Shown: positions 2,273-15,996 of the stretch, one piece after another
Layout of the letters: each line of letters begins with the position of its first letter
Position numbering within the stretch: the stretch's first letter is position 1
Assembly: GCA_902789675.1 (NCBI GenBank)
Contig: CADAPG010000005.1
Span: 868-64,867 of the forward strand
Direction: 5' to 3'
DNA from: an uncultured Eubacteriales bacterium
GTDB lineage: Bacteria > Bacillota > Clostridia > Christensenellales > CAG-138
Length of the DNA stretch: 64,000 nt
Notes under the pieces: generated by a model
Databases searched by the model: none
Seen by the model: the letters and a program-made list of their open reading frames with translations, nothing else
What the model was told of the DNA's origin: nothing
Translations under genes and position numbers: made by a program

Positions 2273-3291
2273 GCGATGAACTAGCGAATACCGGGAAGAT
2301 CCTGATTTATCAAACCGAAAAAGGCGATACCAAGGTTGACGTCTACTTTGCAGAGGACACCATCTGGATGACGCAGCGCGCCATGGCGGAGCTTTATCAG
2401 ACCACACCGCAAAACATTACCACACATATAAAAAACATCTATGCAGATGGTGAACTTGACATGAATTCAACTTGTAAGGATTACTTACAAGTTCAAACCG
2501 AGGGATCAAGAGAAGTAGAGCGTGCCAGAAAGTATTACAGTCTGGATATGATTCTGGCGGTCGGTTATCGTGTGCGCAGCAACGTTGGTATCCATTTCCG
2601 CAGATGGGCGAGCAGCGTCCTTACGGAATACATGAAGAAGGGCTTCGTGCTGAACGACGAACGCCTGCGCAACCCGAAGGAGTTTGGCGCCGACTACTTC
2701 GACGAATTGCTGGAGCGCATCCGCGACATCCGTGCCAGCGAAAAGCGGCTCTATCAAAAGGTTAAGGAAATCTTCGCTTTGTCCGTCGATTACGACAGCC
2801 GAAGCGATGCGGCACAGCTGTTTTTCAAAACCGTGCAGAACAAGCTCGAATATGCGGCGACCGGTCACACCGCGCCGGAGATCATTGCCGCACGCGCGGA
2901 CGCTTCCAAAGACAATATGGGGCTGACGTCATTCAAAGGTGTCAAGGTTCGCAAAACGGATGTGACCGTGGCAAAGAACTATATGACGCACGAGGAAATC
3001 AGCACGCTGAATCTGATTGTCAATATGTATCTCGACTATGCAGAACTGCAGGCAAAACACCATCGCGTTATGCACATGGCGGATTGGGAATTGAAGCTCA
3101 ACCAATTCCTGCAATTCAACGGTCGGGAAGTACTGCAGAACTTTGGTACGGTAAGGCGTGAGGTTGCAGAAGCATTGGCAATTGGCGAGTATGAAAAGTA
3201 TGATGCGCATCGCCGAATGATCGAATCTATAGACAGCGCTGATGAATTAGCAGAGGATGCAAGAAGAATTGAGGAAGGATTTGAAAAATGA
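2269..3291 (+). CDS. rhuM: RhuM-family protein, commonly nested in type I R-M loci
   Basis: The N-terminus ILIYQTEKGDTKVDVYFAEDTIWMTQRAMAELYQTTPQNITTHIKNIY and the body SLDMILAVGYRVRSNVGIHFRRWA match my memory of the RhuM family. ATGA overlaps at both ends. Confidence 0.75.
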   Translation: MSDELANTGKILIYQTEKGDTKVDVYFAEDTIWMTQRAMAELYQTTPQNITTHIKNIYADGELDMNSTCKDYLQVQTEGSREVERARKYYSLDMILAVGYRVRSNVGIHFRRWASSVLTEYMKKGFVLNDERLRNPKEFGADYFDELLERIRDIRASEKRLYQKVKEIFALSVDYDSRSDAAQLFFKTVQNKLEYAATGHTAPEIIAARADASKDNMGLTSFKGVKVRKTDVTVAKNYMTHEEISTLNLIVNMYLDYAELQAKHHRVMHMADWELKLNQFLQFNGREVLQNFGTVRREVAEALAIGEYEKYDAHRRMIESIDSADELAEDARRIEEGFEK

Positions 3292-3938
3292 TGAGCAATC
3301 CTAAAAAGAATGATCCAAGACAATTCTCGGAAAGGCATCCGAAGTGGAACACAATACTGGGTTTGTTTTTATTTTTGATATTGTTAGCAGCAGCAGGGAC
3401 GATACTGTTCTTCGGATTCAAATTCCTAGGAATTGCGATATCACGCTTTCTTGACTGGCTCAAAGACATTTCATCCAGTTTTGACGCTGTTGTCATAGTT
3501 GCTTTGATAACAGGGACTGTTTCGATCATTACAGTTCTTATTAGTTCCGTTGTCGCAAAAAGCATTGAATATAAAAAACAAAGACGTGCTTATCTTGCTC
3601 AAAAACGCGAAAAATCATATGGTGAATTCGTTGAGATGGTATATAAAATACAAATGTATAGTAAAAATGCTGGAAGCTATACAGAAGAAGAAATGAAAGA
3701 TGATATTCGGTCTTTTTCACAAGAATTAACACTCTGGGGGTCGAAAAGAGTTGCTGATAAATGGGTTCAGTTTAGACTGAATGGTGTAAACCCAAAGGTT
3801 GCTACAGATAATTTGTTTTTATTAGAACAAATAATGAACGAAATGAGAAAAGATCTCGGAGTAAAGCGTGTGAAGAAGGGAAAATTGCTTTCGTTTTTTG
3901 TCAATGACATAGATTCGATTATGGGGAAAAACAAATGA
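3288..3938 (+). CDS. Hypothetical 2-TM membrane protein with a ~125-aa helical cytoplasmic tail, nested in the R-M operon
   Basis: Two hydrophobic helices (ILGLFLFLILLAAAGTILFFGF and VVIVALITGTVSIITVLISSVVA) followed by a charged helical region. ATGA overlap with rhuM upstream and with hsdS downstream. No family recognised. Confidence 0.6.
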   Translation: MMSNPKKNDPRQFSERHPKWNTILGLFLFLILLAAAGTILFFGFKFLGIAISRFLDWLKDISSSFDAVVIVALITGTVSIITVLISSVVAKSIEYKKQRRAYLAQKREKSYGEFVEMVYKIQMYSKNAGSYTEEEMKDDIRSFSQELTLWGSKRVADKWVQFRLNGVNPKVATDNLFLLEQIMNEMRKDLGVKRVKKGKLLSFFVNDIDSIMGKNK

Positions 3939-5224
3939 CCACGAAAATCAAGCAACGAATTGAACAGACTCGTCGCGGGGAAGTGCCTGAGGGATATTGT
4001 ATGAAAAGAGCAATGCTATATCCTATGGGCTGGGGGGAGCCAACACCTTTGAACACCGTACTGCACGAGAATACAGATAGAAATGAAAAACTAGAATATG
4101 GGAAGGAGGACGTTCTATCGGTTTCTGGTGAACTTGGGATAATTAACCAGATTGAGCTCCTTGGCCGATCATATGCAGGAGAGTCTGTTGCTCCATATCA
4201 TGTCGTGGAAACAGGTGATGTGGTATATACAAAGAGCCCGCTGAAGGACAATCCGTATGGAATTATTAAGCAGAACCGCGGTAAACCAGGGATAGTATCA
4301 ACACTCTATGCGGTATACCATTGTGATAACCTGATTACCGGTCAGTATCTTGAAAACTATTTTTCTATTGACTCCTTTTTGAACAACTACCTTAGACCTA
4401 TCGTAAAACGTGGTGCAAAAAATGACATGAAAGTCAACAACGAGGATGTTCTGTTGGGAACAATTCCGCTTCCTCAAATTGATGAACAAAAGATAATCAA
4501 CGAAATAATATCTCATGCGGATCATCTAATCAGGCTTAAGCAAATGCTGATTGATGAACTGAAGAAGTTAAAGCGGGCATGCCTGGCAAAGATGTTTCCT
4601 CAAGAAGGGGAAACGGTACCGGAGATTCGCTTCCCTGGATTCACTGCTCCTTGGGAAAAGCGAATGCTTAGGGATGAATTCGCAAGAAGAAGTGAACGAA
4701 ATGACGGCTCGTTCAAAAAACAACATTGGATTTCTGTTGCGAAAATGTATTATCAATCAGCAGATAAAGTCCAATCAAATAATATAGATACAAGAACATA
4801 TATCATGAGGAAAGGAGATATCGCTTTCGAAGGACACCCAAATGCAGATTTCAAGTATGGGAGATTTGTTGTAAACGATATTGGTGATGGCATTATTTCA
4901 GAGCTATTTCCTATTTATCGACATTTAGGGGAGTTTGATATTGCGTATTGGAAAGTGGCTATTCAAAAAGAAGACATCATGGCACCAATAATAGCAAAAG
5001 CAATAACGACGTCAGGTGCTTCTTCAAACAAGCTTAATGAAGAACACTTTTTACGGCAATTTATATTTGTTCCTTCAATGCCAGAACAAGTTGTGATTGG
5101 AAAGTTCTTTTCTTGCTTGGACTCCATGATTAGCCTTTACCAAAACCAGCTTAAACAGGAGGTACAAAAAAAGAAAGCCATAATGCAGCTATTACTGACG
5201 GGGATCGTGAGGGTAAATCAATGA
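3935..5224 (+). CDS. hsdS: Type I R-M specificity subunit, full length (two TRDs)
   Basis: Two TRD-like halves separated by the central coiled coil IPLPQIDEQKIINEIISHADHLIRLKQMLIDELKKLKRACLAKMFPQEGE. Matching C-terminal conserved region VPSMPEQVVIGKFFSCLDSMISLYQNQL. Confidence 0.9.
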   Translation: MTTKIKQRIEQTRRGEVPEGYCMKRAMLYPMGWGEPTPLNTVLHENTDRNEKLEYGKEDVLSVSGELGIINQIELLGRSYAGESVAPYHVVETGDVVYTKSPLKDNPYGIIKQNRGKPGIVSTLYAVYHCDNLITGQYLENYFSIDSFLNNYLRPIVKRGAKNDMKVNNEDVLLGTIPLPQIDEQKIINEIISHADHLIRLKQMLIDELKKLKRACLAKMFPQEGETVPEIRFPGFTAPWEKRMLRDEFARRSERNDGSFKKQHWISVAKMYYQSADKVQSNNIDTRTYIMRKGDIAFEGHPNADFKYGRFVVNDIGDGIISELFPIYRHLGEFDIAYWKVAIQKEDIMAPIIAKAITTSGASSNKLNEEHFLRQFIFVPSMPEQVVIGKFFSCLDSMISLYQNQLKQEVQKKKAIMQLLLTGIVRVNQ

Positions 5225-6018
5225 ACATGAACAAGAAGGATGTTACGAATTCGGAAGACTTGCAAAGATATTTGCAGGAAAAGTCCCGTGAATCCGATAG
5301 GTTGTATCATTATACATCTTTTGATAGCTTGATTTGTATTATCAAAAACAAGTGTGTCCGTTTGTCAAGAATGGATTTGATGAATGATAAAGCCGAACAG
5401 ACTTTAGGACGTCAGGATCAACATTTGAAAAACTATATCATGAGTTTTACGAGAGACAAAGAGTATGTTTCTATGTGGGCGATGTATGGCAAACCGAGCG
5501 GAATAAAGATTCGGGTTGATTTTTCAAGAGATTGCTTTGAGAGAGCAATTAACAACAACTTCTATGAAGATGCTGCGCTAGTGAAGAAAATACCTTTTGA
5601 ATCCGATAACGCCCCTGGGGCATTTTATAAAAAAGATATTCTTATTTCTGATGTGGTTTACCTTGATAAGATATCACAGCAATTACGGCATAATGAGAAT
5701 AAATTCTCTAGTATTGTAGCTGATCAACTGGTTGTTAATGAAATGACAGGGTTCATCAAATATGATGCATGGGAGTTTGAAAGGGAAACGCGTTTGCGTG
5801 TATTAATGCATCATGAGAAAGGGGCTAATCTTGCGGAAATACCAAAGTATATATATGCTGGAATAGATGGGGATTTGGTTCGCGATCTGCATATTACTTT
5901 TAACCCTTGGATGTCTAAAGAATTGAAAGAAGAGATTAAAAAGAGTTTAGACTCTTTAGCAGGATGTCATTTATCATATGATAACAGTCAAAATGACGGC
6001 GAAATATCAGAGCTGTAA
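5221..6018 (+). CDS. DUF2971-like protein
   Basis: N-terminal LYHYTSFDSLICIIKNKCVRLSRMDLMNDKAEQ matches the remembered DUF2971 signature (YHYTS...L...ND..E). ATGA overlap with hsdS. Confidence 0.55.
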   Translation: MNMNKKDVTNSEDLQRYLQEKSRESDRLYHYTSFDSLICIIKNKCVRLSRMDLMNDKAEQTLGRQDQHLKNYIMSFTRDKEYVSMWAMYGKPSGIKIRVDFSRDCFERAINNNFYEDAALVKKIPFESDNAPGAFYKKDILISDVVYLDKISQQLRHNENKFSSIVADQLVVNEMTGFIKYDAWEFERETRLRVLMHHEKGANLAEIPKYIYAGIDGDLVRDLHITFNPWMSKELKEEIKKSLDSLAGCHLSYDNSQNDGEISEL

Positions 6019-6030
6019 GGAGGATAATCC

Positions 6031-6204
6031 ATGAGCATTGAAGAGCATATCAGCAAAGAAATACTCAAAAACTCTGTCAAGAATTGCCCAAACTATACGG
6101 AGAAAATGAAAAGAGATTTGTGTGAGATAATTGATGTGGGACAGACACCAGATGAGATATGCAGGGCTGTTCTGTTATACTTTGCCGCATATACTTGGTG
6201 CTGA
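6031..6204 (+). CDS. Unlisted 57-aa Cys-containing small ORF: MSIEEHISKEILKNSVKNCPNYTEKMKRDLCEIIDVGQTPDEICRAVLLYFAAYTWC
   Basis: AGGAGG at 6019-6024 lies 6 nt upstream of ATG6031, and the ORF starts 12 nt after the DUF2971 stop. It is below the 60-aa cut-off of the ORF track. Four Cys. No family recognised. Confidence 0.4.
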   Translation: MSIEEHISKEILKNSVKNCPNYTEKMKRDLCEIIDVGQTPDEICRAVLLYFAAYTWC

Positions 6205-6268
6205 ATAAAGGGCGTTGTAGCCCTGCAGGATTCTATTAGTGTGTAACAGATAATACGGAGACAGATTT

Positions 6269-9200
6269 ATGCCAAACCATACCATTTTCAATGAACGTCC
6301 GGAATCGCAGGATCGTGCAATTAGGGTAATCGAACAACTCGGCTACACGGTTGTATCACGCGGCGATGCAGAACAAAAGCGCGGATCGCGGCGAGACGTA
6401 CTCTTTTCGGGAGAGCTGCAGTCCTTTTTAGGCAAGCAGACCTATCCTTTCAACAAAGAACAACGCTTCTTTTCCGGCGGAGGGATCTCGAAAGCCGTGC
6501 GTGCCATCGATCATGTTACGGCTGCCGGTCTGTATGCCTGCAACAAAGAGATCTATGATTTGCTGTGCGAAGGGAAGAGCGTAGAGGAAACGCTGCCGGA
6601 CGGTACACAGCAATCCTTTGATATTCGCTATATCGACTTTGATCATCCGGAAAACAATATCTTTCAAGTCACGGATGAGTTTGAAGTGGAACGACCGAAC
6701 GGGAAGTTTGCCCGTCCGGATATTGTTGTGCTGATTAACGGAATCCCCGTGGTTGTGATCGAATGCAAAAAGTCTTCTGTAGACGTGATGGAAGGTGTAA
6801 CACAGAACATCCGAAACCAGGGGGACGATTATATTCCGCAGCTGTTCCGCTATACGCAGATGGTGGTTGCCGTGAATCCGAATAAGGTGCTTTACGGCAC
6901 TTGCGGAACGCCAGCAAAGCATTTTGTTTCGTGGCATGAGGATGACAAACAGTGGCTCGATGCCTGGTGCAAAAAGTGCTCGCCGGACGGACAGATTCTG
7001 GAACAGGATCGTGCGTTGGTTTCTTTGCTGCATCCGGAACGCTTGTTGGATATTATCCGCAACTTTATCATCTATGACAACAATATCAAGAAGGTCTGCC
7101 GTTATAAACAGTTCTTTGCGGTCAAGAAATGCATGGACCGTGTACTGGAGCGAGACGGCGCCAATACACGAAGCGGCGTTGTTTGGCATACGCAGGGCAG
7201 CGGCAAGACCATCACCATGATTATGCTCACGAAGATGATTATTCGGGAAAGCATGAAAAAGGACAGTCCGATCAAAAAGCCCCGATTCATCATGGTGACC
7301 GACCGTATCAACCTCGATAAGCAGATCCGTGACAACTTTATACATACACAGATGGCACCGCACAGGGCAAAGACAGGAAAGGGCTTGGTTGAACTCCTGA
7401 AAGATGACAGCAACACGGTTATTACAGCACTGGTCAACAAGTTTGAGGCGGCAATCAAGCAAAAGTATTGCAACGAGAGTAAAAACATCTTTCTATTCAT
7501 CGATGAAGGACATCGTACGCAGTATGGCTCTTTGAATATGTATATGACGGAGGTTCTGCCGAATGCAGCAAAGATTGCCTTCACAGGAACGCCGTTGATG
7601 CAGAAAACACCAGAGGGAAGCAAGACACCGATTCAACCCAAACGCAACACGTTTGCCAAGTTCGGAACGCTGATTGACAGCTATACGCTTCAGGATGCGA
7701 TTGATGACGGCGTAACGGTTCCTTTGGTTTATGAAGGCCGTGTTGTTCCGCAATCTGTTACAAGCGAGCAGATCAACGCGCATCTGAAATATATCACGGT
7801 AGGGCTTTCGGAAGATGCGAGACTGGATCTGGAAAAGAAATACAGTCAATTCGTTTATACCGCAGAAACGGAGCAGCGGTTGAATATGATCGCTTTCGAC
7901 CTGCACGAGCATTTTATCAGCTATGTAAAGCCGAAAGGATTCAAAGCGATTCTGACCTGTTCCTCACGTGCTGCAGCCGTGCAAATGTTTTACAAGCTGC
8001 GCAGCATCGGGGGGATTACTCCTGCTGTCGTCATCACACCCAACACGGCAAACGAAGGAGATGACGAGGAAAACACGACAGAATCCAAGAGAATCATCGG
8101 AGATTTCTTCAAAAAGGAAATCGATCCGCTCTACAAGAACAACTATGAGGCATACGAAGATTCTGTTACCGGTGAGTTTGTAGACCCGGAAGGGGAGATT
8201 GATCTTCTCATCGTAAAAGATAAGTTGCTGACCGGCTTTGATGCACCAATTGCTGCGGTATTGTATGTTGATAAGAAGCTGAGAGATCACACTTTGCTGC
8301 AAGCAATCGCACGTGTCAACCGCGTATATGCAGATAAGGATTTCGGATTGATCGTTGATTATATCGGGATCTTCAAGAAGTTGAATTCGGCACTTGATTT
8401 GTATTCGGACGAAAAATCCGGAATGGATGCATTCGATCAAAGCGATATTACGTCTGCAATTACCTCGGTAGAAGAAGAAAAAACTGCGTTGGAGAAAGCA
8501 CATAAGATGCTTTGGGATGTATTCGAAGGCATTCCGAAGAATGAAAAACGAGCGAATGTCTGGCAGGAGCATCTTCGCGAATATGAAAAACGCGTACTAT
8601 TCTATGAAAAACTGGCTGCTTTTGCAAAGCGCGTTGACTTCCTTTATACGAGCTACGACTTGTTCAAAGCAATCGGGCAGGAAAAGGCAGAACAATATCG
8701 AAAAGACTACTTATTCTTCAAAAAACTGAAGGATAGCGTTTCCTTGCGTTTCAACGACAGGGTAGACTTCTCGCAATATGAAGATGGCATTCGCAGATTG
8801 TTGAACACCTATGTTAATGCAGAAGATGTAAGAACGATCATAGAACCGCTCGATATTTCCAATAAGGATAAAATGGAAGAGCAGTTGGCAAGGTTGGGAT
8901 CAAACGAGGCAAAGGCAGAGGCAATTCAAACTCGTCAGGTAGAGGTCTTGGAGAGCAGAAGATTCGAAGATCCGATTCTGTACATGACCTTCATGGAGCG
9001 AATTAACAAAACGATCCGTGACTATCTTGCTGAACGTGATAGCGAAAAATACTTGTCATCTATGGAGCAACTGGCAGACGATTATCGTGCCGGCAGAGGA
9101 AGTACGAATTACCCGGAGATCATCATGGACGATGGGGACGCTAAGTCTTTCTACGGAGCGGTGTGTGCGGGAATTAAAAAGTCAATTGGCGAGGTGACCA

Positions 9201-9427
9201 ACCCGACAAGTGACGCAATGGGCAAGCTGGCAATTAGCATTAAAAACATTATAATTGCCAACACGAAAAGGGATTGGAAAGATAATATTGTCGTTCATCG
9301 CAATATCAAGAAAGCGCTTGATGACCTGCTTTTCGACTATATTGAAGAAAATCATTTAGACTGGTCGTTGGATACAATCGACATTATCATCGATGAAATC
9401 ATGATGGTCGCAAAAAAAGGATTCTGA
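6269..9427 (+). CDS. hsdR: Type I restriction enzyme R subunit (endonuclease/helicase)
   Basis: PD-(D/E)xK nuclease motif PDIVVLINGIPVVVIECKK. Helicase motif I TQGSGKT and motif II DEGHR, plus QAIARVNR. Size is typical (1052 aa). Confidence 0.95.
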   Translation: MPNHTIFNERPESQDRAIRVIEQLGYTVVSRGDAEQKRGSRRDVLFSGELQSFLGKQTYPFNKEQRFFSGGGISKAVRAIDHVTAAGLYACNKEIYDLLCEGKSVEETLPDGTQQSFDIRYIDFDHPENNIFQVTDEFEVERPNGKFARPDIVVLINGIPVVVIECKKSSVDVMEGVTQNIRNQGDDYIPQLFRYTQMVVAVNPNKVLYGTCGTPAKHFVSWHEDDKQWLDAWCKKCSPDGQILEQDRALVSLLHPERLLDIIRNFIIYDNNIKKVCRYKQFFAVKKCMDRVLERDGANTRSGVVWHTQGSGKTITMIMLTKMIIRESMKKDSPIKKPRFIMVTDRINLDKQIRDNFIHTQMAPHRAKTGKGLVELLKDDSNTVITALVNKFEAAIKQKYCNESKNIFLFIDEGHRTQYGSLNMYMTEVLPNAAKIAFTGTPLMQKTPEGSKTPIQPKRNTFAKFGTLIDSYTLQDAIDDGVTVPLVYEGRVVPQSVTSEQINAHLKYITVGLSEDARLDLEKKYSQFVYTAETEQRLNMIAFDLHEHFISYVKPKGFKAILTCSSRAAAVQMFYKLRSIGGITPAVVITPNTANEGDDEENTTESKRIIGDFFKKEIDPLYKNNYEAYEDSVTGEFVDPEGEIDLLIVKDKLLTGFDAPIAAVLYVDKKLRDHTLLQAIARVNRVYADKDFGLIVDYIGIFKKLNSALDLYSDEKSGMDAFDQSDITSAITSVEEEKTALEKAHKMLWDVFEGIPKNEKRANVWQEHLREYEKRVLFYEKLAAFAKRVDFLYTSYDLFKAIGQEKAEQYRKDYLFFKKLKDSVSLRFNDRVDFSQYEDGIRRLLNTYVNAEDVRTIIEPLDISNKDKMEEQLARLGSNEAKAEAIQTRQVEVLESRRFEDPILYMTFMERINKTIRDYLAERDSEKYLSSMEQLADDYRAGRGSTNYPEIIMDDGDAKSFYGAVCAGIKKSIGEVTNPTSDAMGKLAISIKNIIIANTKRDWKDNIVVHRNIKKALDDLLFDYIEENHLDWSLDTIDIIIDEIMMVAKKGF

Positions 9428-9430
9428 GAA

Positions 9431-10153
9431 ATGAGCAGTATTTTACTAACACTATCTAATGGGCAGATTGTTTCTGTGCAGATTGATAGAAAGAAAATGA
9501 AGACATGTCGATTAAAGGTGTTTCCTGATCGACAGATCATTCTTTCTGTTCCGGAATTCGTCAGCGATGAATGGGCAGATGCTTTTTTGGAGGAAAAAAG
9601 ATCTTGGATCGAGAAAAAACTGGAGGTATTTAATTCGACAAGAGGATATGCTTCGACAAATATAATCAAAAATGGTTTCTCTATTCAAATGCTTGGCGAA
9701 GACTTGATCTTTAGTGTATTTCAAGCCGAGAAAGACTATGTAACGCGGGAGGATCGGATTATACAAATTTGCGTTAAGGACCCATCTGATCAAGATCACA
9801 TTATGGATCTTTTCCAAAAGTGGTGGAAAAAACAAGCGTTAAGAATACTACGCGAACGCGTTGACTACTGGTATCCTATTATTCAAAAATATGGGATATC
9901 AAAACCAAAAGTGTACATAAGAAAGATGAAAACGCTTTGGGGAAGCTGCAGCAGAGACAGAGGAATCGTAACCTTCAATTTCTATTTAATAAAAGCGAGG
10001 AGCGCGTGCATTGATTACGTTGTACTTCATGAGCTGACGCATTTTCTATATCCAAACCATAGCAAGCAGTTCTATTCTTTTTTGAGTAATTATATGCCTG
10101 ACTGGAAGGAAAGGAAAACGATATTAGATCAGGATGTTGTTCATGGATTGTGA
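9431..10153 (+). CDS. DUF45/YgjP-like (M48-type) zinc metallopeptidase, a frequent hsdR neighbour
   Basis: HExxH motif in VVLHELTHFLYPNHS near the C-terminus. Starts 3 nt after the hsdR stop. Confidence 0.8.
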   Translation: MSSILLTLSNGQIVSVQIDRKKMKTCRLKVFPDRQIILSVPEFVSDEWADAFLEEKRSWIEKKLEVFNSTRGYASTNIIKNGFSIQMLGEDLIFSVFQAEKDYVTREDRIIQICVKDPSDQDHIMDLFQKWWKKQALRILRERVDYWYPIIQKYGISKPKVYIRKMKTLWGSCSRDRGIVTFNFYLIKARSACIDYVVLHELTHFLYPNHSKQFYSFLSNYMPDWKERKTILDQDVVHGL

Positions 10154-10214: not shown

Positions 10215-10265
10215 AAAAGGAGAAGAATCCTTGATCTACGAATACGTCACGGGGAAGAAGGAGGT
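10215..10265 (+). repeat. 51-nt leader element, copy 1 (3 mismatches to copy 2)
   Basis: aaaaggagaagaatccttgatctacgaatacgtcacggggaagaaggaggt, read directly. It ends 6 nt before GTG10272. Confidence 0.95.
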
Positions 10266-10269
10266 ATAA
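10231..10269 (+). promoter_or_regulatory. Candidate leader micro-ORF (TTG start) encoding (M)IYEYVTGKKEV, stop TAA
   Basis: AGGAG-N8-TTG. Codons 10-12 (aag gag gta) form the GGAGG Shine-Dalgarno of the 444-aa ORF. The stop lies 2 nt before GTG10272. Confidence 0.4.
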
Positions 10270-10271
10270 TT

Positions 10272-11606
10272 GTGCGAATGAGGAAAGATAAACTGACGGG
10301 AGCTTTAGATGATGCGAACATTGTTTTTAGTAACAATGATTATCAGTTTACTCTAATGGCAGCTAATAAAGAAGAACCAGAATGTAAACTTGAGTCTTCT
10401 GACGGGTTTATCTATGGTACCTCGTATTACAACAAAAGAGTTGGACTTTTTATTGGGGAATCAAAACTGTGCATTAGCAAATCGCTGTTGTACACTCCTT
10501 TACTCTACGTTCAGTCAGAAACAGCTTGGAATAAAAACATAGATATCAGCAAGTTTCAGCGCATCGTGTTTTCAGGAGGAACACTCAATAATCTTTTTGA
10601 AACTCGATTCTATCAAGATCAGTTACAATTTGATAATGACAAAATAACTATTAACTACCCTACATATAAAAAGCAGTATTCATTTAGAATAAAAGGGACT
10701 AAATGTAATATTACAATTGGCATACTTCCGAACGATTCCTGTGATGATACCTCCTTAAACTATCATAATGAGGCTTACATATGTTTAGAATTTGAGGAAG
10801 AACAACCGTTATCAGATGTGCGAATGCATTATAAATATATTAATCAGGTAGTGTCTGTTATGACACATAGAAAAGAGAATCACTTCGATTATATATTTGT
10901 AGAACAAAGTGGAGACGCGATGATGAGGATGATGAACAGATGTTTGGTTCATCTATGGGAGAATGATAATGCTCAAATGCACAGTAACTGTTGCGCTACA
11001 TTTGATTTTCTGGGAGATAGTCTACCGAGACTATTAAGTCTCGTCTATAACAGTAAAGACAAAGAGGCATCGTACTCATTAGGTTTCATACCGCAAAACA
11101 ATGATGATAGCAGAATCATTACAGATGACACAATTCGATCAATATCAGCGGCCATTGAATGCGAATATCAATTGAGTGATGATCTAACAATTAATTATTC
11201 AGAAGAGTTGGATACAATTTGTGAATTGGCAAGAAATGCAGTAATTAAGTACCGTGAAGAGTATAAGAACTCTACAAAGCTTTCTCCAGATACATATAAT
11301 TCCATTTTCAAAAGTATAAGCTTTTGGAAGATAACTACCGCTGAAAAGGCTTATGCCTTATACGAAAGATTCAAGAACAATATGGAGAGTTATTTTAGCT
11401 TTCGGCAGAGAATAGCGCAGGAAGACATACAACGATTTGTACAGTATAGAAACAGCATATCACATGGTAGTTATCGTAAGATGACGAAGGAAATTAGAGA
11501 TACGGCTTTTGCAATGAAAGTGCTGGTGTATTATAGTTTGCTTCATCGTATTGGTATTCCCGATGAGAAGTTGAATGAATTAAATGTTATGGGGGTTGTG
11601 TTTTGA
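10272..11606 (+). CDS. ApeA-like HEPN-domain protein: beta-rich N-terminal region plus C-terminal HEPN with RNSISH
   Basis: FVQYRNSISHGSYRK (R-x4-H) lies about 45 aa from the C-terminus, where HEPN helix 4 sits. Size and layout resemble the single-gene ApeA abortive-infection proteins. This assignment is from memory only. Confidence 0.5.
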   Translation: MRMRKDKLTGALDDANIVFSNNDYQFTLMAANKEEPECKLESSDGFIYGTSYYNKRVGLFIGESKLCISKSLLYTPLLYVQSETAWNKNIDISKFQRIVFSGGTLNNLFETRFYQDQLQFDNDKITINYPTYKKQYSFRIKGTKCNITIGILPNDSCDDTSLNYHNEAYICLEFEEEQPLSDVRMHYKYINQVVSVMTHRKENHFDYIFVEQSGDAMMRMMNRCLVHLWENDNAQMHSNCCATFDFLGDSLPRLLSLVYNSKDKEASYSLGFIPQNNDDSRIITDDTIRSISAAIECEYQLSDDLTINYSEELDTICELARNAVIKYREEYKNSTKLSPDTYNSIFKSISFWKITTAEKAYALYERFKNNMESYFSFRQRIAQEDIQRFVQYRNSISHGSYRKMTKEIRDTAFAMKVLVYYSLLHRIGIPDEKLNELNVMGVVF

Positions 11607-11618
11607 TAAGAATAAGGG

Positions 11619-12197
11619 GTGATTTGCGTGCTGCTACAAATAATAAATGAAATTAAACAGTGCATATCCAATGATCTATACCTCGCTGCTTTGAGCATGG
11701 CACTGACGATTCCGGATATATGCGGTAAAGCAGAGTATCCCGAGCTGAAAGATAATAGAGACAAAACGAAGAAACGCTATGTGCAGTGGTTTGATACATA
11801 CATCGGGCAACATCAACGCAAATATAGCATTTCTGAAAATGACGGTGTGCCTGATCTCCCATATATCAGCGGCGAACTGGTTTACAAGCTGAGGAACAGC
11901 GTTTTGCATTCCGGCATGGTTGATGTTGACGGACAGAAACTCTCAGAAGAGCAGAACAAGGTTACGAAATTCCGGTTGATGATTTCGGAGAATTTGAGCG
12001 GCGGCTATGCAGCAAGCGATGCAGCGATCACTCGTTCATTGAGCGGTGAAGAAGTGAGCAGGGAATACACGGTTTCGATCCAGTATCTTTGCAACATCCT
12101 TTGTTACGCTGCTGAGAAGTATTACAATGCAAACAAGGATAAGTTCGATTTCTTCCAATACAACATCGTTGACGAACGAAAAGGGGAAAGAGTATGA
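11619..12197 (+). CDS. Small HEPN-like protein (RNSVLH motif); start is GTG11619 or GTG11628
   Basis: Helical N-terminal half LAALSMALTIPDICGK ... ELVYKLRNSVLHSG contains an R-N-x3-H motif. AAGGGG precedes GTG11628. The gene begins 12-21 nt after the upstream stop. Confidence 0.5.
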   Translation: MICVLLQIINEIKQCISNDLYLAALSMALTIPDICGKAEYPELKDNRDKTKKRYVQWFDTYIGQHQRKYSISENDGVPDLPYISGELVYKLRNSVLHSGMVDVDGQKLSEEQNKVTKFRLMISENLSGGYAASDAAITRSLSGEEVSREYTVSIQYLCNILCYAAEKYYNANKDKFDFFQYNIVDERKGERV

Positions 12198-12811
12198 GCA
12201 AGAACGAAAAGCAAAACAAACAACGTAATTTGATAATTGCCGTCTTTTGCGTTATGGCGTTCTTCGTGACGGCGGCTCTGTTATTGGATGTATTCGATGT
12301 TCCGTCAAGACTCGGCTTTAACTGCAAAGATGTGAATTGGAGCATCCAAGGGACAATCATCGGCTCGGTTATTACGATTGGATTGTATCTCATAACATAC
12401 CTGTTAATTCAGCGATGGGATCTAAGAAGGCAGAATAATAAGCAAGAGATAGCTGTCCTGCTATTAAAAGATGCCTATACTGATTGTGAAAAGGGCTTGG
12501 CAATTTTAGAAAAAGGCTATTATCAGATGTTGAAGGATTCTGACGATGATATCGCAAAACAAATTTGCTCCAACGCCGAAAGATTTGCGGATTCATCTTT
12601 TCAAAACGAAACTGTTATCATGGATCTATGCAAAGATGGAGTGATTTCGTCAGAACAGTTGAGAGCCTATTTCAGGGTAAAAACATTTTACTTACAATAC
12701 GTTAGGCTGTCTCTTGCCATGCCGGACAATTCAGGCTTGCATAAGAAAACCAAAGAGATGGCGGAACAAGAAATAAAAGCGGCACTTGAATTGTTAGATA
12801 AGGAAAGATAG
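12194..12811 (+). CDS. Hypothetical 2-TM membrane protein with a helical C-terminal domain
   Basis: TM helices LIIAVFCVMAFFVTAALLLDVF and TIIGSVITIGLYLITYLLI. ATGA overlap with the mini-HEPN gene. No family recognised. Confidence 0.6.
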   Translation: MSKNEKQNKQRNLIIAVFCVMAFFVTAALLLDVFDVPSRLGFNCKDVNWSIQGTIIGSVITIGLYLITYLLIQRWDLRRQNNKQEIAVLLLKDAYTDCEKGLAILEKGYYQMLKDSDDDIAKQICSNAERFADSSFQNETVIMDLCKDGVISSEQLRAYFRVKTFYLQYVRLSLAMPDNSGLHKKTKEMAEQEIKAALELLDKER

Positions 12812-12816
12812 TCGAC

Positions 12817-12867
12817 AAAAGGAGAAAAGTCCTTGATCTACGAATATGTCACGGGGAAGAAGGAGGT
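12817..12867 (+). repeat. 51-nt leader element, copy 2
   Basis: aaaaggagaaaagtccttgatctacgaatatgtcacggggaagaaggaggt, read directly. It ends 9 nt before ATG12877. Confidence 0.95.
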
Positions 12868-12880
12868 TGCCGATTCATGA
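12833..12880 (+). promoter_or_regulatory. Candidate leader micro-ORF copy 2, (M)IYEYVTGKKEVADS; the stop TGA overlaps ATG12877 (ATGA)
   Basis: Same AGGAG-N8-TTG and the same first 12 codons as copy 1. The only codon difference is TAC to TAT (both Tyr). Confidence 0.4.
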
Positions 12881-14073
12881 CAATAAAAGAGCTGGGCTTG
12901 TTGCTTCACGAATACGATGTGTATGATGCACTGCAGTTTATCACTGGCGCACAGAGAGCAATTCTTTCAGCTCTGTTTTGCAAGGATGTAATAGCTGGCT
13001 TACATAACGAAGTTCAAACCGTGACAGAGAAATGGGATGAAGCAATATCTGAAAAAGTAAAAGAGAACCGCGGGAAAGGTGGATGGACAGGGGTTAGCGA
13101 CTGGCCGAATTATAATGTGACAATTGCTGGTGTCGAGATCAACTCGATGTTTGTTCAGGATTTCTTGGTTAGAACTTTCTTTCAGAACGGAAGAAATGCT
13201 TTTGATATATTAGCGCAAGCGGCGAATACCGGATGCTTGGCGACGAAAGCAAAAGCAATTGAACGTGTTAATTTTCGAAGGATGAGCGAGGCTTTCCAAC
13301 AGCAGACATATCAGCAAGCTTCCCCGGAAATGAGCGAGTGGTTCAGCAGTATAGCAAATTCTGACGAATTTAAATATATTGACGCATACTGCAACAGAAC
13401 AAAGCATACGTGTTCGATACCAACGAAGTTTACGATGCCAATACTCAGTAGTGATAATACCGCGACGATACCGGCGTTTCATAAAGAAACCAATCAGTAT
13501 GATGAAAAGGATGTATTAGAACATATTCCTGCTATTTATGAATTCGTTTCAAAAGTGTACCATGATTTCATCGTAATCTTGAAGAAGGAGATAACGAAGC
13601 GTACATATACGGATAACAGGTACTATACTGTAAAGGTTTATCAGCAGAAATATCGTCAAAAGGAGGAGGAAGGTTTCTCGGCTGCGCTGATCGAAGCAAC
13701 AACAGACATAGGTTCTATGCCGGATTCCATACAGATCCTGTTTGCTAAAGCACTCAAGTATAGCGATGGCAACAAAGAGGTAATGGCGCAGAATTGTCCA
13801 TTTGATACGGTTTATATCAAAGCAAAGGATGCAACAGACGAATGCGACTTCATCGGTAAATATGTAGCGAAGGATGTCATTGTCAAGGATGCTCTTCTTC
13901 GATTCAGAACATATAAGAAAGTAATACCTGATAAAGGCGAACAACCGTTGGCTTTGCAAGCGGCGGGGGATGAGAAGCAAAAAGGGAAGTATTATCGCGC
14001 CAACCATTTCTTTGCTATAAAAACAGTCAGCGACGATGAAGCGTTTCTTAAAAAGGTAAATCTGACACTGTAA
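12877..14073 (+). CDS. Hypothetical 398-aa protein, possibly a degenerate HEPN (CNRTKH)
   Basis: Helical N-terminal half with FFQNGRNAFDILAQAAN and IDAYCNRTKHT. The N and H line up with RNSISH and RNSVLH of the two upstream proteins, but the canonical R is a C. The C-terminal ~200 aa are unassigned. Confidence 0.35.
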   Translation: MTIKELGLLLHEYDVYDALQFITGAQRAILSALFCKDVIAGLHNEVQTVTEKWDEAISEKVKENRGKGGWTGVSDWPNYNVTIAGVEINSMFVQDFLVRTFFQNGRNAFDILAQAANTGCLATKAKAIERVNFRRMSEAFQQQTYQQASPEMSEWFSSIANSDEFKYIDAYCNRTKHTCSIPTKFTMPILSSDNTATIPAFHKETNQYDEKDVLEHIPAIYEFVSKVYHDFIVILKKEITKRTYTDNRYYTVKVYQQKYRQKEEEGFSAALIEATTDIGSMPDSIQILFAKALKYSDGNKEVMAQNCPFDTVYIKAKDATDECDFIGKYVAKDVIVKDALLRFRTYKKVIPDKGEQPLALQAAGDEKQKGKYYRANHFFAIKTVSDDEAFLKKVNLTL

Positions 14074-14082
14074 GAGGGAAGA

Positions 14083-14406
14083 GTGATGGAAAAACGAGCT
14101 ACACTGGATGATAGAATCTATACTGCGATCAGGGATAAAGCGGAAGCGTGGGAAGTGGCTGAATTGTCTGCTGAAGAAACACAAGAAAAGCTTTGCGATG
14201 CCACGACGGAAGCTTTTGATAACATTATTCCCGGGGAACGGGTTGATAGGTTCGAGTATTATAAATCACATATGTATGGCTTTGGTCAACTCGTGCAAGA
14301 TGTACACGAAGGTATAATGAACGCTCCTATTGGTTCAAGCGATGAAAAGAAAATAGAACAAAATGCGCCGCAAACAGTTGTTTCCGACGAATTGCCAGAC
14401 CTTTGA
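14083..14406 (+). CDS. Small acidic hypothetical protein (107 aa; ATG14086 is an alternative start)
   Basis: GAGGGAAGAG lies upstream. The protein is rich in D/E. It starts 10 nt after the 398-aa ORF and ends 9 nt before the next ORF. Confidence 0.5.
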   Translation: MMEKRATLDDRIYTAIRDKAEAWEVAELSAEETQEKLCDATTEAFDNIIPGERVDRFEYYKSHMYGFGQLVQDVHEGIMNAPIGSSDEKKIEQNAPQTVVSDELPDL

Positions 14407-14415
14407 GGAAAGAAT

Positions 14416-15996
14416 ATGTCCGAACGTTATACTCGCTTATTTACACTTCCGGAGGGAAACCTATATGCTATCGGTTCTTCTATTATCATTTGTGCCGGAG
14501 CATTATTAAAAGACACTTTATCTGGAAACATTATCGCGCAGTTGAAGTTTCGCAACATCGGAAACAAAACAGTCTCTGCTTTGAAGGTTTCTATACGAAC
14601 GTATGATATTTTTGGAAAAGAATTAGAAGGTATAACAGAGTATCAGTATCTAGATTTAGCGGTTTTGAGGGATCAAGAATTCGGTCAGAAAACCGCTGTG
14701 GTTCTGCCAAACCCGGATACTCGTTCTTTTTGCTGTGATTGCCGTAGCATAGTATTTGCTGATGGCTCTGTTTGGGAAGCAAAAGAAGCGAATTGGTCAC
14801 CTTTGAAAAAGCAAGAATCATTACAATCTCGTTTTGGCGATCTGATAAGTCAATATCAACGTGATATAGGAGATCCGGAAGCAAGATTTGTTGCAATCGA
14901 AGACCGCGATCTTTGGCTTTGCACGTGTGGGGCAATCAACAATAGTGAGGAAAAAATCTGTCATAGTTGCAAGACAAGAATTGAGAAATTAAAAGAGGCA
15001 GAAGATATGACGCTCTTAAATGAGCATTTACAGGAGTATCTACAGAAGGAAGAACAGGCTCGTCTTGAAACTGAACGCAGAGCAGAAATCGCACGTGCGG
15101 AAGAAGCACAAAAAGCTGAAGAAGAACGAATCGCGGCAGAAAAAACGAAAAAGAGATGGAAACAAATTGTTGCGATAGTAACGCCGATCATTCTTGCTTG
15201 CATCGCTTTTGTCATAGTATTAGTCTCTTATATAATTCCTAATAAGAAATACAATTCGGCTTTAGAACTCTACAAATCCAGAAAATACGAAGAGGCAATT
15301 GCGGCATTTGAAGCAATAGCAGGATTTAAGGATAGTAAGGAGAAGATTCAAGTCATCAAGCCTTTGTACCACGATGAATTACTGAATAATGCAAGCGCTG
15401 GATCAGTAGTATTCTTCGGATGCTATGAACAGGATAATGAAGTGGCTACAGCAAATGAAGATATTGAGTGGTTAGTGCTAAAAAGAGATAACAATAGAAT
15501 CCTTTTGATCAGTAGATATGTACTTGATTGTCATCGTTTTGATTATGATATACCCGAGGGAAGCGCATCATGGGGAAATTCATCAATCAGATACTGGCTT
15601 AATAATTCCTTTTTTGAGAATGCCTTTTCAAGTGAAGAACAGGAAAGAATACAAGCGATCCCCATTGAATCAATATCTCCTGCAACTGGCTATGTTTATA
15701 CCACAACAGACAAAGTGTTCTTGTTATCAATTAGCGAAGCAAGCGATTATTTTGTAACAGACAAAGAAAGGACCTGTTTGCCTACAGATTATGCTTCTGA
15801 ACAGATTGTTGTTAATGGAGGTAAACTATACGGGGCAACATGCGAGTGGTGGTTATTGCCTTCTGATAGCGACCCAGCAGGTGTATATGCTGCAGGTGTA
15901 TTAGATGATGGTTGGATTCAACGAAGTCTTCTTAGTGACATAACATACTTTGGTGTACGACCAGTGATATGGGTTGATTTAAATAGTGAAAATTAA
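14416..15996 (+). CDS. Zn-ribbon / coiled-coil / single-TM / DUF6273-like protein
   Basis: CTCGAINNSEEKICHSCK (CxC...CxxC). Charged coiled coil EQARLETERRAEIARAEEAQKAEEERIAAEK. TM helix IVAIVTPIILACIAFVIVLVSYII. The C-terminal WWLLPS...YFGVRPVIWVDL resembles the DUF6273 pattern. Confidence 0.6.
   Translation: MSERYTRLFTLPEGNLYAIGSSIIICAGALLKDTLSGNIIAQLKFRNIGNKTVSALKVSIRTYDIFGKELEGITEYQYLDLAVLRDQEFGQKTAVVLPNPDTRSFCCDCRSIVFADGSVWEAKEANWSPLKKQESLQSRFGDLISQYQRDIGDPEARFVAIEDRDLWLCTCGAINNSEEKICHSCKTRIEKLKEAEDMTLLNEHLQEYLQKEEQARLETERRAEIARAEEAQKAEEERIAAEKTKKRWKQIVAIVTPIILACIAFVIVLVSYIIPNKKYNSALELYKSRKYEEAIAAFEAIAGFKDSKEKIQVIKPLYHDELLNNASAGSVVFFGCYEQDNEVATANEDIEWLVLKRDNNRILLISRYVLDCHRFDYDIPEGSASWGNSSIRYWLNNSFFENAFSSEEQERIQAIPIESISPATGYVYTTTDKVFLLSISEASDYFVTDKERTCLPTDYASEQIVVNGGKLYGATCEWWLLPSDSDPAGVYAAGVLDDGWIQRSLLSDITYFGVRPVIWVDLNSEN

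What the first reader, a model, noticed from the sequence alone, without database searches (positions are those of the whole stretch)
10215..15996. System-level hypothesis: two leader-tagged, parallel three-gene modules (large HEPN-like, small partner, membrane protein)
Read together, the 5.8-kb stretch between the R-M operon and the island border has a repeated logic. Module A is leader-444 aa (RNSISH)-192 aa (RNSVLH)-205 aa (2 TM). Module B is leader-398 aa (CNRTKH)-107 aa (acidic)-526 aa (Zn ribbon, coiled coil, 1 TM, DUF6273). All genes are on the same strand, with gaps of 12 nt or less inside each module. The modules share only the leader. Three consecutive xNxxxH proteins with a shared translational leader and membrane-associated last genes is not a described defence system as far as I know. 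This is my best candidate for the novel system in the window.
Basis: inference. Interest (0 to 1): 0.8.

Follow-up and report, generated by a model that had tools for sequence, protein, structure and literature searches.

The report
Swapped defence cassettes carrying hsdS scars
The six genes are not one new two-module immune system but a patchwork of independently mobile anti-phage gene cassettes stitched onto a restriction-modification operon, and the shared "leader" is the leftover last ~15 codons of a foreign specificity-subunit gene (hsdS) at which the cassettes recombined.

Summary
The system-level reading fails.

- **The leader.** It encodes SLIYEYVTGKKEV, the conserved C-terminal tail of a type I HsdS family that is not the window's own HsdS. 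In other contigs intact hsdS genes end with the same DNA directly in front of the 444-aa gene or the 398-aa gene. Leader A is a hybrid with a crossover inside the tail.
- **Three joined blocks.** These are 2275-10265 (R-M operon, L003-like), 10232-14278 (L044-like cassettes) and 14271-16552 (L053-like tRNA-side block).
- **Module B is not a module.** The 398-aa protein (DUF8310) occurs alone or with varying neighbours. The 107-aa ORF is an in-frame chimera of two truncated genes. The 526-aa DUF6273 protein belongs to the tRNA-side block.
- **Module A.** It travels as a triplet only among 96-99.7% identical copies. The 444-aa protein is a divergent ApeA-like HEPN protein whose distant relatives lack the partners. 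A relative of the 192-aa protein occurs without it.

This is a known kind: defence genes embedded in type I R-M operons. The new detail is a visible mechanism of cassette exchange.

The parts
692..10153 (+). Resident type I R-M operon with its own embedded genes. It comprises hsdM 692-2272, RhuM-like 2269-3291, a 216-aa ORF 3288-3938, hsdS 3935-5224 (ends ...LLLTGIVRVNQ), a DUF2971 protein 5221-6018, hsdR 6269-9427 and a YgjP-like protein 9431-10153.
   Evidence: Positions 2275-10265 are 97.9% identical to L003.
10215..10269 (+). Leader A, a hybrid hsdS-tail relic. It contains an SD-like AAGGAG, then TTG 10231 through TAA 10269, encoding MIYEYVTGKKEV*. The KKEV codons AAGAAGGAGGT form the SD for the GTG start at 10272.
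   Evidence: Searches show the repeat. In alignment A3 the left half equals the L003 relic and the right half equals the hsdS/444-aa junction of L044 and L046. The crossover lies inside GATCTACGAATACGT.
10272..11606 (+). A1, a 444-aa divergent ApeA-like protein with a beta-rich N-terminal domain and a C-terminal HEPN carrying RNSISH.
   Evidence: It is 99.3-99.6% identical in protein sequence in L044, L045 and L046, where it directly follows intact hsdS genes.
11628..12197 (+). A2, a 189-aa protein (192 aa if it starts at 11619). It is all-alpha with RNSVLH, so a possible minimal HEPN.
   Evidence: PADLOC CARF_HEPN gives E=1.3e-3. A 40%-identical relative with RNCVLH lies in L089 between hsdS and hsdR without A1. 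The single-sequence structure model is unusable.
12194..12811 (+). A3, a 205-aa protein with two N-terminal transmembrane helices and a helical C-terminal part. Its start overlaps the A2 stop (ATGA).
   Evidence: No relatives were found beyond the near-identical cassette copies. The L046 copy is only 82% identical.
12808..12880 (+). Leader B, the native 5' unit of this DUF8310 cassette. It has an SD-like AAGGAG, then TTG 12833 through TGA 12880, encoding MIYEYVTGKKEVADS*. Its stop overlaps the B1 start (ATGA). The hsdS-derived part runs from about 12825.
   Evidence: The same unit precedes DUF8310 in L003 and L044/L045.
12877..14073 (+). B1, a 398-aa DUF8310 (PF26979) protein with an N-terminal long-helix bundle and a C-terminal beta-rich domain. 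Invariant residues are R106 N107 D110 Q114 N117 and N173 R174 K176 H177.
   Evidence: No HEPN hit or any other fold hit was found.
14083..14406 (+). B2, a 107-aa chimeric ORF. Codons 1-65 are the N-terminus of a 335-aa DUF5677 gene. Codons 64-107 are the C-terminus of a 100-aa membrane-protein gene. The junction lies at the 5-nt microhomology TATGT, at about 14271-14275.
14416..15996 (+). B3, a 526-aa protein with a Cys-rich (zinc-ribbon-like) cytoplasmic part, a coiled coil, one transmembrane helix and an extracellular DUF6273 (C-type-lectin-like) domain. It belongs to the tRNA-side block.
   Evidence: Positions 14271-16552 are 98.5% identical to L053, where the intact 100-aa gene precedes it. 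The fold and DGR association of DUF6273 come from PMC10743442.
16523..16598 (-). tRNA-Met, the border of the low-GC island.

Best explanation
The 5.8-kb stretch is a mosaic of at least three or four independent units. These are an ApeA-like HEPN gene, a small HEPN-like plus membrane-protein pair, a DUF8310 gene with a truncated DUF5677 neighbour, and a resident DUF6273 surface-protein gene.

**Where the first three units come from.** They are 'embedded' defence cassettes whose home is the slot between hsdS and hsdR of a different type I R-M family. They were transplanted behind hsdR/YgjP of the window's own R-M operon.

**What the leader is.** It is the last roughly 13-17 codons of that foreign hsdS gene.
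- It travels with the cassette because its KKEV codons (AAGAAGGAGGT) are the Shine-Dalgarno site of the next gene.
- Its stop codon abuts or overlaps the next start, which points to termination-reinitiation coupling.
- Being conserved among hsdS genes, it also serves as the homologous crossover point for cassette exchange.

**How leader A and the 107-aa ORF arose.** Leader A was created by a crossover between a pre-existing relic (L003-like) and a genuine hsdS tail (L044-like). The other end of the incoming DNA was joined illegitimately at a 5-nt microhomology. That join produced the chimeric 107-aa ORF.

**Inferred function.** A1 acts like ApeA, as an infection-activated HEPN anticodon nuclease that causes abortive infection. 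A2/A3 and B1 are further, mechanistically unknown abortive-infection candidates. All are probably co-transcribed with the R-M operon as back-up layers, following the PrrC paradigm.
For: **Shown by tool results**
- Intact HsdS proteins end ...SLIFEYVTGKKEV directly upstream of DUF8310 (L004, L008). They end the same way upstream of A1 relatives (L009, L042).
- In L044 and L046 the hsdS 3' end is base-for-base the right half of window leader A, up to and including TAATTGTG.
- The window's own HsdS ends differently, and its HsdM is only 29% identical to that chassis.
- Three-block mosaic by blastn: 2275-10265 matches L003 (97.9%), 10232-14278 matches L044 (97.1% overall; module A is about 99.7% identical) and 14271-16552 matches L053 (98.5%).
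- L003 has the same R-M operon and YgjP followed by relic and DUF8310, without module A.
- One R-M chassis (HsdM 96%, HsdR 93%) carries different cargo between hsdS and hsdR in L004, L044 and L046. L044 has a 10-gene array there.
- Survey of 120 metagenome contigs with this hsdS tail: of 109 with a downstream ORF, 37 continue with hsdR and 72 with other genes in 36 sequence clusters. These include TIR (12), FRG (6) and canonical ApeA (2). The downstream ORF mostly starts at -4 to +2 nt from the hsdS stop.
- 82 of the 120 tails use the SD-forming codons AAGGAGGT.
- Truncated hsdS tails of 67-83 codons precede cassettes in L091, L101 and L121; in L173 the truncated tail is followed directly by hsdR.
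- No terminator-like site lies between the six genes on the + strand, although one weak stem lies inside B3 at 14731-14749.

**From the literature**
- ApeA function is described in bioRxiv 10.64898/2026.01.26.701840.
- R-M-embedded HEPN genes and PrrC are described in PMC3710099.
- Widespread embedding in type I R-M systems is described in bioRxiv 10.1101/2024.01.29.577857.
Against: - No experiment shows that any of the six genes defends against phage.
- A1 itself is below the Pfam gathering scores (22.1 against 24.4 bits for HEPN_Apea; 16.6 against 25.5 for ApeA_NTD1). No PADLOC model matches any of the six genes significantly.
- The direction and order of the recombination events are inferred from only three comparison contigs.
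- The left homology anchor is short, roughly 15-50 nt.
- The core of the relic shows 4 synonymous and 0 non-synonymous differences between L003 and the window. That could mean the mini-ORF is itself selected rather than being a neutral scar.
- Module A has so far only been seen as an intact triplet, so its division into two units rests on distant relatives.
Confidence: 0.78

Rival explanations
1. One reading: the six genes form one novel defence system built from two parallel three-gene modules. Each module would have a large HEPN-like protein, a small partner and a membrane protein, and both would be driven by a dedicated shared translational leader.
For: Same strand, tight spacing and a shared 51-nt element. 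Literal xNxxxH motifs occur in three proteins. The A-to-B adjacency with the relic between them recurs in L044/L045.
Against: - The 107-aa ORF is a junction chimera.
- The DUF6273 gene comes with the tRNA-side block and has its own intact 100-aa partner in L053.
- DUF8310 has different neighbours or none in nine other contexts.
- DUF8310 shows no HEPN signal.
- A1 relatives lack A2 and A3.
- The leader is an hsdS tail.
Confidence: 0.04
2. Module A (444 + 189 + 205 aa) is a genuine three-component system. In this view an ApeA-like nuclease is regulated by, or cooperates with, a second small HEPN protein and a membrane protein. Only module B is accidental.
For: - The triplet is intact in the window, L044, L045 and L046, and partly in L047. 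These sit behind three different hsdS genes or contexts.
- The gap between A1 and A2 is 12-21 nt, with no hsdS relic in it. A2 and A3 overlap by 4 nt.
Against: - All triplet copies are 96-99.7% identical in DNA, so they reflect recent spread of one cassette rather than deep conservation.
- The 33 genome loci plus L042/L043 with A1 relatives (21-41% identity) have no A2 or A3 relative, and several sit alone between hsdS and hsdR.
- The only distant A2 relative (L089) is paired with a different small membrane protein and has no A1.
- Canonical ApeA works as a single protein.
Confidence: 0.22
3. The relic is not a passive scar but a selected, translated mini-ORF (12-15 codons with its own SD-like AAGGAG and a TTG start). 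It would keep the downstream cassette gene translationally coupled once the cassette has left its hsdS gene.
For: - AAGGAG lies 7-8 nt upstream of TTG. The stop is 2 nt before the next start (TAA..GTG) or overlaps it (ATGA).
- In the 13-codon core, the L003 and window relics differ at 4 sites, all synonymous, while flanking codons differ non-synonymously.
- In intact operons the downstream ORF usually overlaps or abuts the hsdS stop, which suggests that coupling matters.
Against: - The TTG is simply the Leu codon used by several intact hsdS genes.
- The synonymous pattern can be imported by gene conversion from real hsdS tails, which demonstrably happened for leader A.
- The relic-specific 5' part gave 0 hits in JGI metagenomes and IMG/VR, so there is only one evolutionary instance.
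- No expression data exist.
Confidence: 0.3
4. The stretch is a decaying graveyard of cassette debris with no current function.
For: - B2 is a chimera.
- L004-L007 carry 39-aa DUF5677 fragments and 43-aa A1 fragments in the same slot.
- DUF5677 gave no protection in one published screen.
Against: - A1, A2, A3, B1 and B3 are full-length and match full-length relatives end to end.
- The A1 and B1 families keep invariant catalytic-type residues.
- B1 models with pLDDT 89.8.
Confidence: 0.06

Closest known systems
Defence genes 'embedded' in type I R-M operons (guilt-by-embedding; Payne et al. 2024, bioRxiv 10.1101/2024.01.29.577857)
   Same: The same-orientation cargo genes sit between hsdS and hsdR in the donor-type loci (L004, L008, L009, L042, L044, L046, L052, L089). 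The cargo is diverse: TIR, FRG, ApeA, SLFN, Abi_alpha, RES and DUFs.
   Different: In the window the cassettes are appended after hsdR/YgjP of an unrelated R-M family rather than nested. They still carry a piece of the donor's hsdS. The paper leaves open how embedding arises; here the junctions show homologous exchange at the hsdS tail.
PrrC / EcoprrI (anticodon nuclease between hsdS and hsdR)
   Same: It is a HEPN RNase gene placed directly after hsdS in a type I operon. The presumed logic is a second-line abortive defence backing up restriction.
   Different: A1 has no ABC-ATPase domain. There is no evidence that it binds or is silenced by the R-M complex. In the window it is no longer next to its original R-M.
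ApeA (Gao et al. 2020; Pfam ApeA_NTD1 + HEPN_Apea; tRNA anticodon nuclease activated by deoxydinucleotides)
   Same: Size is about 440-480 aa, with a beta-rich N-terminal domain and a C-terminal HEPN carrying an invariant RNxxxH. It is a single-gene family, some members of which are embedded in R-M operons. A canonical ApeA sits in the same array in L044 and in the same slot in L096/L163.
   Different: A1 scores below the Pfam thresholds and is not matched by PADLOC or PDB sequence searches. It represents a divergent subfamily (291 representatives at E<=1e-3). It is followed by two extra genes in its only known recent copies.
Recombination in conserved regions of hsdS (TRD reassortment, hsdS shufflons/invertons)
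   Same: The conserved, non-TRD parts of hsdS act as recombination substrates.
   Different: Here the C-terminal conserved tail mediates exchange of whatever lies downstream of hsdS, not of target-recognition domains. No invertase or inverted repeat is involved.
Integron gene cassettes
   Same: There is an ordered, same-strand array of promoter-less cassettes, with a short conserved element at cassette boundaries.
   Different: There is no integrase and no attC structure. Only some boundaries carry the element. Exchange appears to be by homologous and illegitimate recombination.

Membership tests
ApeA (for the 444-aa protein) | C-terminal HEPN domain with the Rx4-6H catalytic motif | tested here: met
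   RNSISH lies at 393-398. R393, N394 and H398 are invariant in 24 relatives.
ApeA (for the 444-aa protein) | Match to Pfam HEPN_Apea and ApeA_NTD1 above the gathering score | tested here: inconclusive
   The protein itself scores 22.1 against 24.4 bits and 16.6 against 25.5 bits. Among 24 family members, 16 hit HEPN_Apea and 8 hit ApeA_NTD1 at E<=1e-3. There is no PADLOC ApeA hit and no PDB sequence hit.
ApeA (for the 444-aa protein) | Acts as a single gene; oligomeric; ligand-activated tRNA anticodon cleavage | not testable with these tools
   Distant relatives do stand alone. The biochemistry is known only from the literature.
PrrC-type R-M-embedded anticodon nuclease | Gene located between hsdS and hsdR of a type I system | tested here: met
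   This is met for relatives and near-identical copies (L009, L042, L044, L046). In the window itself the gene lies after hsdR/YgjP.
PrrC-type R-M-embedded anticodon nuclease | N-terminal ABC-type NTPase domain fused to the HEPN | tested here: not met
   No ATPase family hit appears in Pfam, NCBIfam or PADLOC.
HEPN superfamily (for the 192/189-aa protein) | Rx4-6H motif in an all-alpha domain, supported by a profile or fold match | tested here: inconclusive
   RNSVLH is conserved as RNCVLH in the L089 relative. The only profile signal is PADLOC CARF_HEPN at E=1.3e-3. There is no Pfam hit. The single-sequence model has pLDDT 36.
HEPN superfamily (for the 398-aa protein) | Rx4-6H motif and a HEPN four-helix fold | tested here: not met
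   The motif is C-N-R-T-K-H, so the invariant R174 and H177 are spaced Rx2H. There is no HEPN hit in Pfam or PADLOC and no similarity to the A1 HEPN profile. A high-confidence model has no PDB or BFVD match at E<0.05.
DUF8310 (PF26979) | Match to the Pfam model | tested here: met
   The precomputed Pfam assignment applies to the window protein and all 40 relatives. The model is absent from the local Pfam copy.
   A1 occurs alone. A2 occurs without A1. B1 occurs alone or with other neighbours. B2 is chimeric. B3 lies in another block.
DGR variable-protein target (DUF6273 / C-type-lectin-like), for the 526-aa protein | DUF6273 domain plus a template repeat and reverse transcriptase nearby | tested here: not met
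   The domain is present at 73.7 bits. No second copy of the 3' 750 nt exists anywhere in the 64-kb window.

The most novel reading that the evidence does not exclude
The conserved 3' tail of hsdS may work as a recombinase-free docking site for defence cassettes. It would combine a homology anchor, a built-in Shine-Dalgarno site (the KKEV codons AAGAAGGAGGT) and a stop/start coupling context. Any gene dropped behind it would be expressed at once, and cassettes could be shuffled between type I operons. A cassette could even take a 40-56-nt copy of the tail along, as a still-translated mini-ORF, when it moves to an unrelated operon. This would give a concrete mechanism for the 'embedding' of defence genes. 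Independently, the 444-189-205 triplet could be a real three-part ApeA derivative.
Probability: 0.3. Interest if true: 0.6.

Novelty: new member of a known kind. Interest (0 to 1): 0.38.

Why it matters
The work turns an apparent new 'system' into a worked example of how defence islands are assembled. The same R-M chassis carries from one to ten cargo genes between hsdS and hsdR. The junctions show homologous crossover in the hsdS tail on one side and microhomology joining on the other.

This has three practical consequences.
- It warns against reading operon-like spacing and shared upstream sequence as evidence of a functional system.
- It supplies candidates for testing: a divergent ApeA subfamily, an HEPN-like plus membrane-protein pair, and DUF8310, which has a confidently predicted fold with no detectable relative.
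- It suggests a simple search key for harvesting embedded defence cassettes and their relics, namely hsdS tails of the ...YVTGKKEV type.

Tried and rejected
- **Rfam search of 9500-17000.** Only the tRNA was found, so the leader is not a known RNA element.
- **Word-indexed protein searches with the 444-aa protein.** Searching with the protein alone and with a 24-sequence profile found almost nothing. The exhaustive representative search was needed.
- **Viral-contig scans for the 192-aa and 205-aa proteins.** No relatives were found.
- **Relic-specific DNA pattern in JGI metagenomes and IMG/VR.** It gave 0 hits.
- **Single-sequence AlphaFold of the 189-aa protein.** The model is unusable at pLDDT 36.
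- **Foldseek of the good DUF8310 model against PDB and BFVD.** Nothing scored below E=0.05. PDB sequence profile searches for both families were also empty.
- **hhalign comparisons.** A2 against A1, B1 against A1, A1 against the canonical ApeA of L044, and B1 against the 400-aa L044 protein all gave nothing significant.
- **B3 as a DGR target with a nearby template.** No repeat was found.
- **The 607-aa Zn-ribbon protein of L004 as a B3 relative.** It is not.
- **A 6-nt insertion as the origin of the relic's SD.** I considered this and rejected it. Alignment A3 shows that hsdS homology simply ends about 8 nt upstream of the TTG.
- **Independent promoters or terminators around each module.** No convincing sites were found.

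Full report
**1. Observation**

- The region is low in G+C (0.36-0.42 against about 0.6 beyond 17 kb) and ends at tRNA-Met 16523-16598(-).
- The two upstream elements, 10215-10265 and 12817-12867, are 48/51 identical. Two matches were found against 0.00 expected in shuffles.
- Pfam confirms DUF6273 in the 526-aa protein. It gives only sub-threshold ApeA-type hits for the 444-aa protein. The other four proteins have no significant Pfam, NCBIfam or PADLOC match.

**2. What the leader is**

Read in frame, both copies encode (S)LIYEYVTGKKEV followed by a stop. That stop lies 2 nt before the GTG start of the 444-aa gene, or overlaps the ATG start of the 398-aa gene.
- This peptide is the C-terminal tail of a family of type I specificity subunits. 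Intact HsdS proteins in L004 and L008 end ...YKKSLIFEYVTGKKEV.. immediately before a DUF8310 gene.
- The HsdS genes of L009 and L042 end the same way immediately before relatives of the 444-aa protein.
- In L044 and L046, near-identical copies of the 444-aa gene directly follow intact hsdS genes. The last 40 nt of those hsdS genes, plus the TAATTGTG junction, are the same DNA as the right half of window leader A.
- The window's own HsdS ends ...LLLTGIVRVNQ. Its HsdM is only 29% identical to that of the donor-type chassis. The tail is therefore foreign to the resident R-M system.

**3. Mosaic structure**

blastn splits the region into three blocks.

| Window coordinates | Matches | Identity | Content |
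|---|---|---|---|
| 2275-10265 | L003 1-7991 | 97.9% | R-M operon, YgjP-like gene, relic |
| 10232-14278 | L044 3574-7621 | 97.1% overall | hsdS tail, 444-189-205, relic, DUF8310, first 65 codons of DUF5677 |
| 14271-16552 | L053 1339-3625 | 98.5% | Last 42 codons of a 100-aa membrane-protein gene, the DUF6273 gene, the tRNA border |

- L003 has the identical R-M operon and YgjP gene followed by relic, DUF8310 (84% identical) and a full 335-aa DUF5677 gene. It has no module A.
- In alignment A3, leader A matches L003 up to ...GATCTACGAATACGT and matches L044 from GATCTACGAATACGT onward. The crossover therefore lies inside the hsdS tail.
- At the right end, homology to L044 and to L053 meets at a 5-nt microhomology (TATGT). 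This fuses DUF5677 codon 65 in frame to the C-terminal 42 codons of the 100-aa gene.
- The 107-aa 'acidic partner' is therefore a junction chimera.
- Within the L044-like block, module A differs at only 9 positions. A 600-nt patch inside DUF8310 (13040-13630) is about 15% divergent, which is a further recombination tract.

**4. Synteny tests**

*The 444-aa protein.*
- Its family has 291 representatives at E<=1e-3 in the exhaustive search.
- It keeps an invariant R393/N394/H398. Of 24 members, 16 hit HEPN_Apea and 8 hit ApeA_NTD1. It is a divergent ApeA-like family.
- In 33 genome loci (mostly Clostridia MAGs) plus L042/L043, no relative of the 192-aa or 205-aa protein is nearby.
- In L009 and L042/L043 the relative sits alone between hsdS and hsdR. 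In L031 and L037 it also lies inside an R-M operon, followed by an Abi_alpha-like gene in L031. Elsewhere the contexts vary.

*The triplet and its small partners.*
- The triplet is intact only in near-identical copies (L044, L045, L046, L047).
- The one distant relative of the 192-aa protein (40% identity, RNCVLH) lies in L089. The order there is hsdS, a 122-aa coiled-coil/one-TM protein, the relative, then hsdR, with no ApeA-like gene.
- This suggests that the small HEPN-like protein plus a small membrane protein is a unit of its own.

*DUF8310.*

| Loci | Context of DUF8310 |
|---|---|
| L052 | Directly after hsdS, alone |
| L008 | After hsdS, followed by SLFN_AlbA_2 |
| L004-L007 | After hsdS, followed by cassette debris: a 39-aa DUF5677 fragment and a 43-aa fragment of an A1-like HEPN |
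| L003, L044 | Followed by DUF5677 |
| L049-L051 | Next to Mrr and LlaJI-type restriction genes |
| L048 | On another mobile element |

*The donor chassis.* L004, L044 and L046 share one R-M chassis (HsdM 96%, HsdR 93%) with different cargo. L044 carries ten genes between hsdS and hsdR: the triplet, DUF8310, DUF5677, RES, a 400-aa ORF, a canonical ApeA and an SLFN-type protein.

**5. How general is the slot?**

- Of 109 contigs with a downstream ORF, 37 continue with hsdR and 72 with other genes. Those 72 fall into 36 sequence clusters, including TIR (12), FRG (6), canonical ApeA (2), DUF4238 and Zn-ribbon proteins carrying an RxxxxH motif (seen by eye, no Pfam HEPN hit).
- The downstream ORF's first possible start codon usually overlaps or abuts the hsdS stop.
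- 82 of the 120 tails use AAGGAGGT for K-E-V, a perfect Shine-Dalgarno sequence 4-13 nt before the stop.
- Truncated hsdS tails of 67-83 codons precede cassettes in L091, L101 and L121; in L173 such a tail is followed directly by hsdR. Relics travelling with cargo are therefore not unique to this window.
- The relic-specific 5' part (AAGGAG...TCCTTG) was not found in JGI metagenomes or IMG/VR.

**6. Mechanism**

*Shown.*
- The leader is hsdS-derived.
- It contains the SD of the downstream gene.
- It is the site of one crossover.
- The right junction is a microhomology join.

*Inferred.*
- Cassettes are exchanged by homologous recombination at the conserved tail, and by one-sided-homology or illegitimate joining.
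- They are expressed by read-through transcription from the R-M operon. No terminator-like site lies between the six genes on the + strand, although one weak stem lies inside B3.
- Translation is coupled to the upstream ORF.

*Function, by analogy only.*
- A1 would be an ApeA-like infection-activated anticodon nuclease.
- A2/A3 would be a small RNase with a membrane partner.
- DUF8310 has a confidently modelled two-domain fold (pLDDT 89.8) and invariant polar residues. It has no detectable structural or sequence relative, so its activity is unknown and it is not demonstrably HEPN.
- The DUF6273 protein is a membrane-anchored C-type-lectin-like surface protein. It has no template repeat in the window and is most likely unrelated to the cassettes.

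*Unresolved.* The relic might be maintained as a translated mini-ORF. The L003 and window relics show 4 synonymous and 0 non-synonymous differences in the core. Gene conversion from genuine hsdS tails would produce the same pattern.

**7. Comparison with what is known**

- HEPN genes embedded in R-M operons, including ApeA, and the PrrC/EcoprrI paradigm were described in 2013 (PMC3710099).
- Large-scale embedding of defence cassettes in type I R-M, BREX, DISARM and Hma systems was described in 2024. That work left open how and why embedding arises.
- The present locus belongs to that kind. It adds new members: a divergent ApeA subfamily, an HEPN-like/TM pair and DUF8310. It also gives an explicit view of the exchange mechanism.

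**8. Verdict**

The system-level interpretation is not supported, apart from the defence flavour of the region, the HEPN nature of the first protein and the recent co-mobility of module A. The region is a new member of a known kind and is of moderate interest.

Noticed in passing
window 16425-16457: There are three perfect tandem copies of GTGTCGTCAAA just inside the island, next to the 3' end of tRNA-Met. They are conserved in L053. They could be recombinase arm-type sites or part of an att region.
   Followed up: no
window 13040-13630 (inside the DUF8310 gene): This 600-nt patch is about 15% divergent from L044, inside a block that is otherwise about 99.7% identical. It is a gene-conversion or diversification tract covering the part of the protein with the invariant RN..D and NRxKH residues.
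   Followed up: partly
L046 6149-6658 compared with window 12194-12704: The 205-aa membrane protein is only 82% identical in L046, while the two upstream proteins are 98-99% identical. The differences cluster in the cytoplasmic part, at about residues 90-130.
   Followed up: partly
L004-L007 (for example L004 9213-9468): Cassette debris lies between DUF8310 and the next gene. It consists of a 39-aa N-terminal DUF5677 fragment and a 43-aa fragment of an A1-like HEPN C-terminus (46% identical). Repeated turnover has therefore occurred in the same slot.
   Followed up: partly
L044 3614-13350: About 10 kb, holding ten cargo genes, is nested between hsdS and hsdR of one type I system. The cargo is an ApeA-like gene, an HEPN-like gene, a TM protein, DUF8310, DUF5677, RES, a 400-aa ORF, a canonical ApeA and SLFN_AlbA_2. 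This is an unusually long embedded array.
   Followed up: partly
window 2269-3938 and 5221-6018: The resident R-M operon itself carries embedded genes. A RhuM-like gene and a 216-aa ORF lie between hsdM and hsdS. A DUF2971 protein lies between hsdS and hsdR. A YgjP-like metal-hydrolase gene follows hsdR.
   Followed up: partly
window 16056-16112 and 16264-16292: An 18-codon hydrophobic ORF (MKIIKSILLISSIALLLL) sits behind a strong SD. A perfect 12-bp hairpin (CCGGGATTCGGA/TCCGAATCCCGG) lies in the gene-free stretch between the DUF6273 gene and the tRNA. Both are conserved in L053.
   Followed up: no
L054-L173 (metagenome contigs with the hsdS tail): 68% of hsdS genes of this family encode their last K-E-V with AAGGAGGT, a perfect Shine-Dalgarno sequence. 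The next gene's first possible start mostly overlaps or abuts the hsdS stop. This suggests selection on hsdS codon choice for translation of the downstream gene.
   Followed up: partly
L121 1579-2559: A 67-codon truncated hsdS tail is followed by a small nucleotidyltransferase-like ORF (104 aa) and a 141-aa ORF, then hsdR fragments. I read this pair as a possible MNT/HEPN-type toxin-antitoxin pair from the sequences only; no family search was run on either ORF. This would be another relic-led cassette.
   Followed up: no
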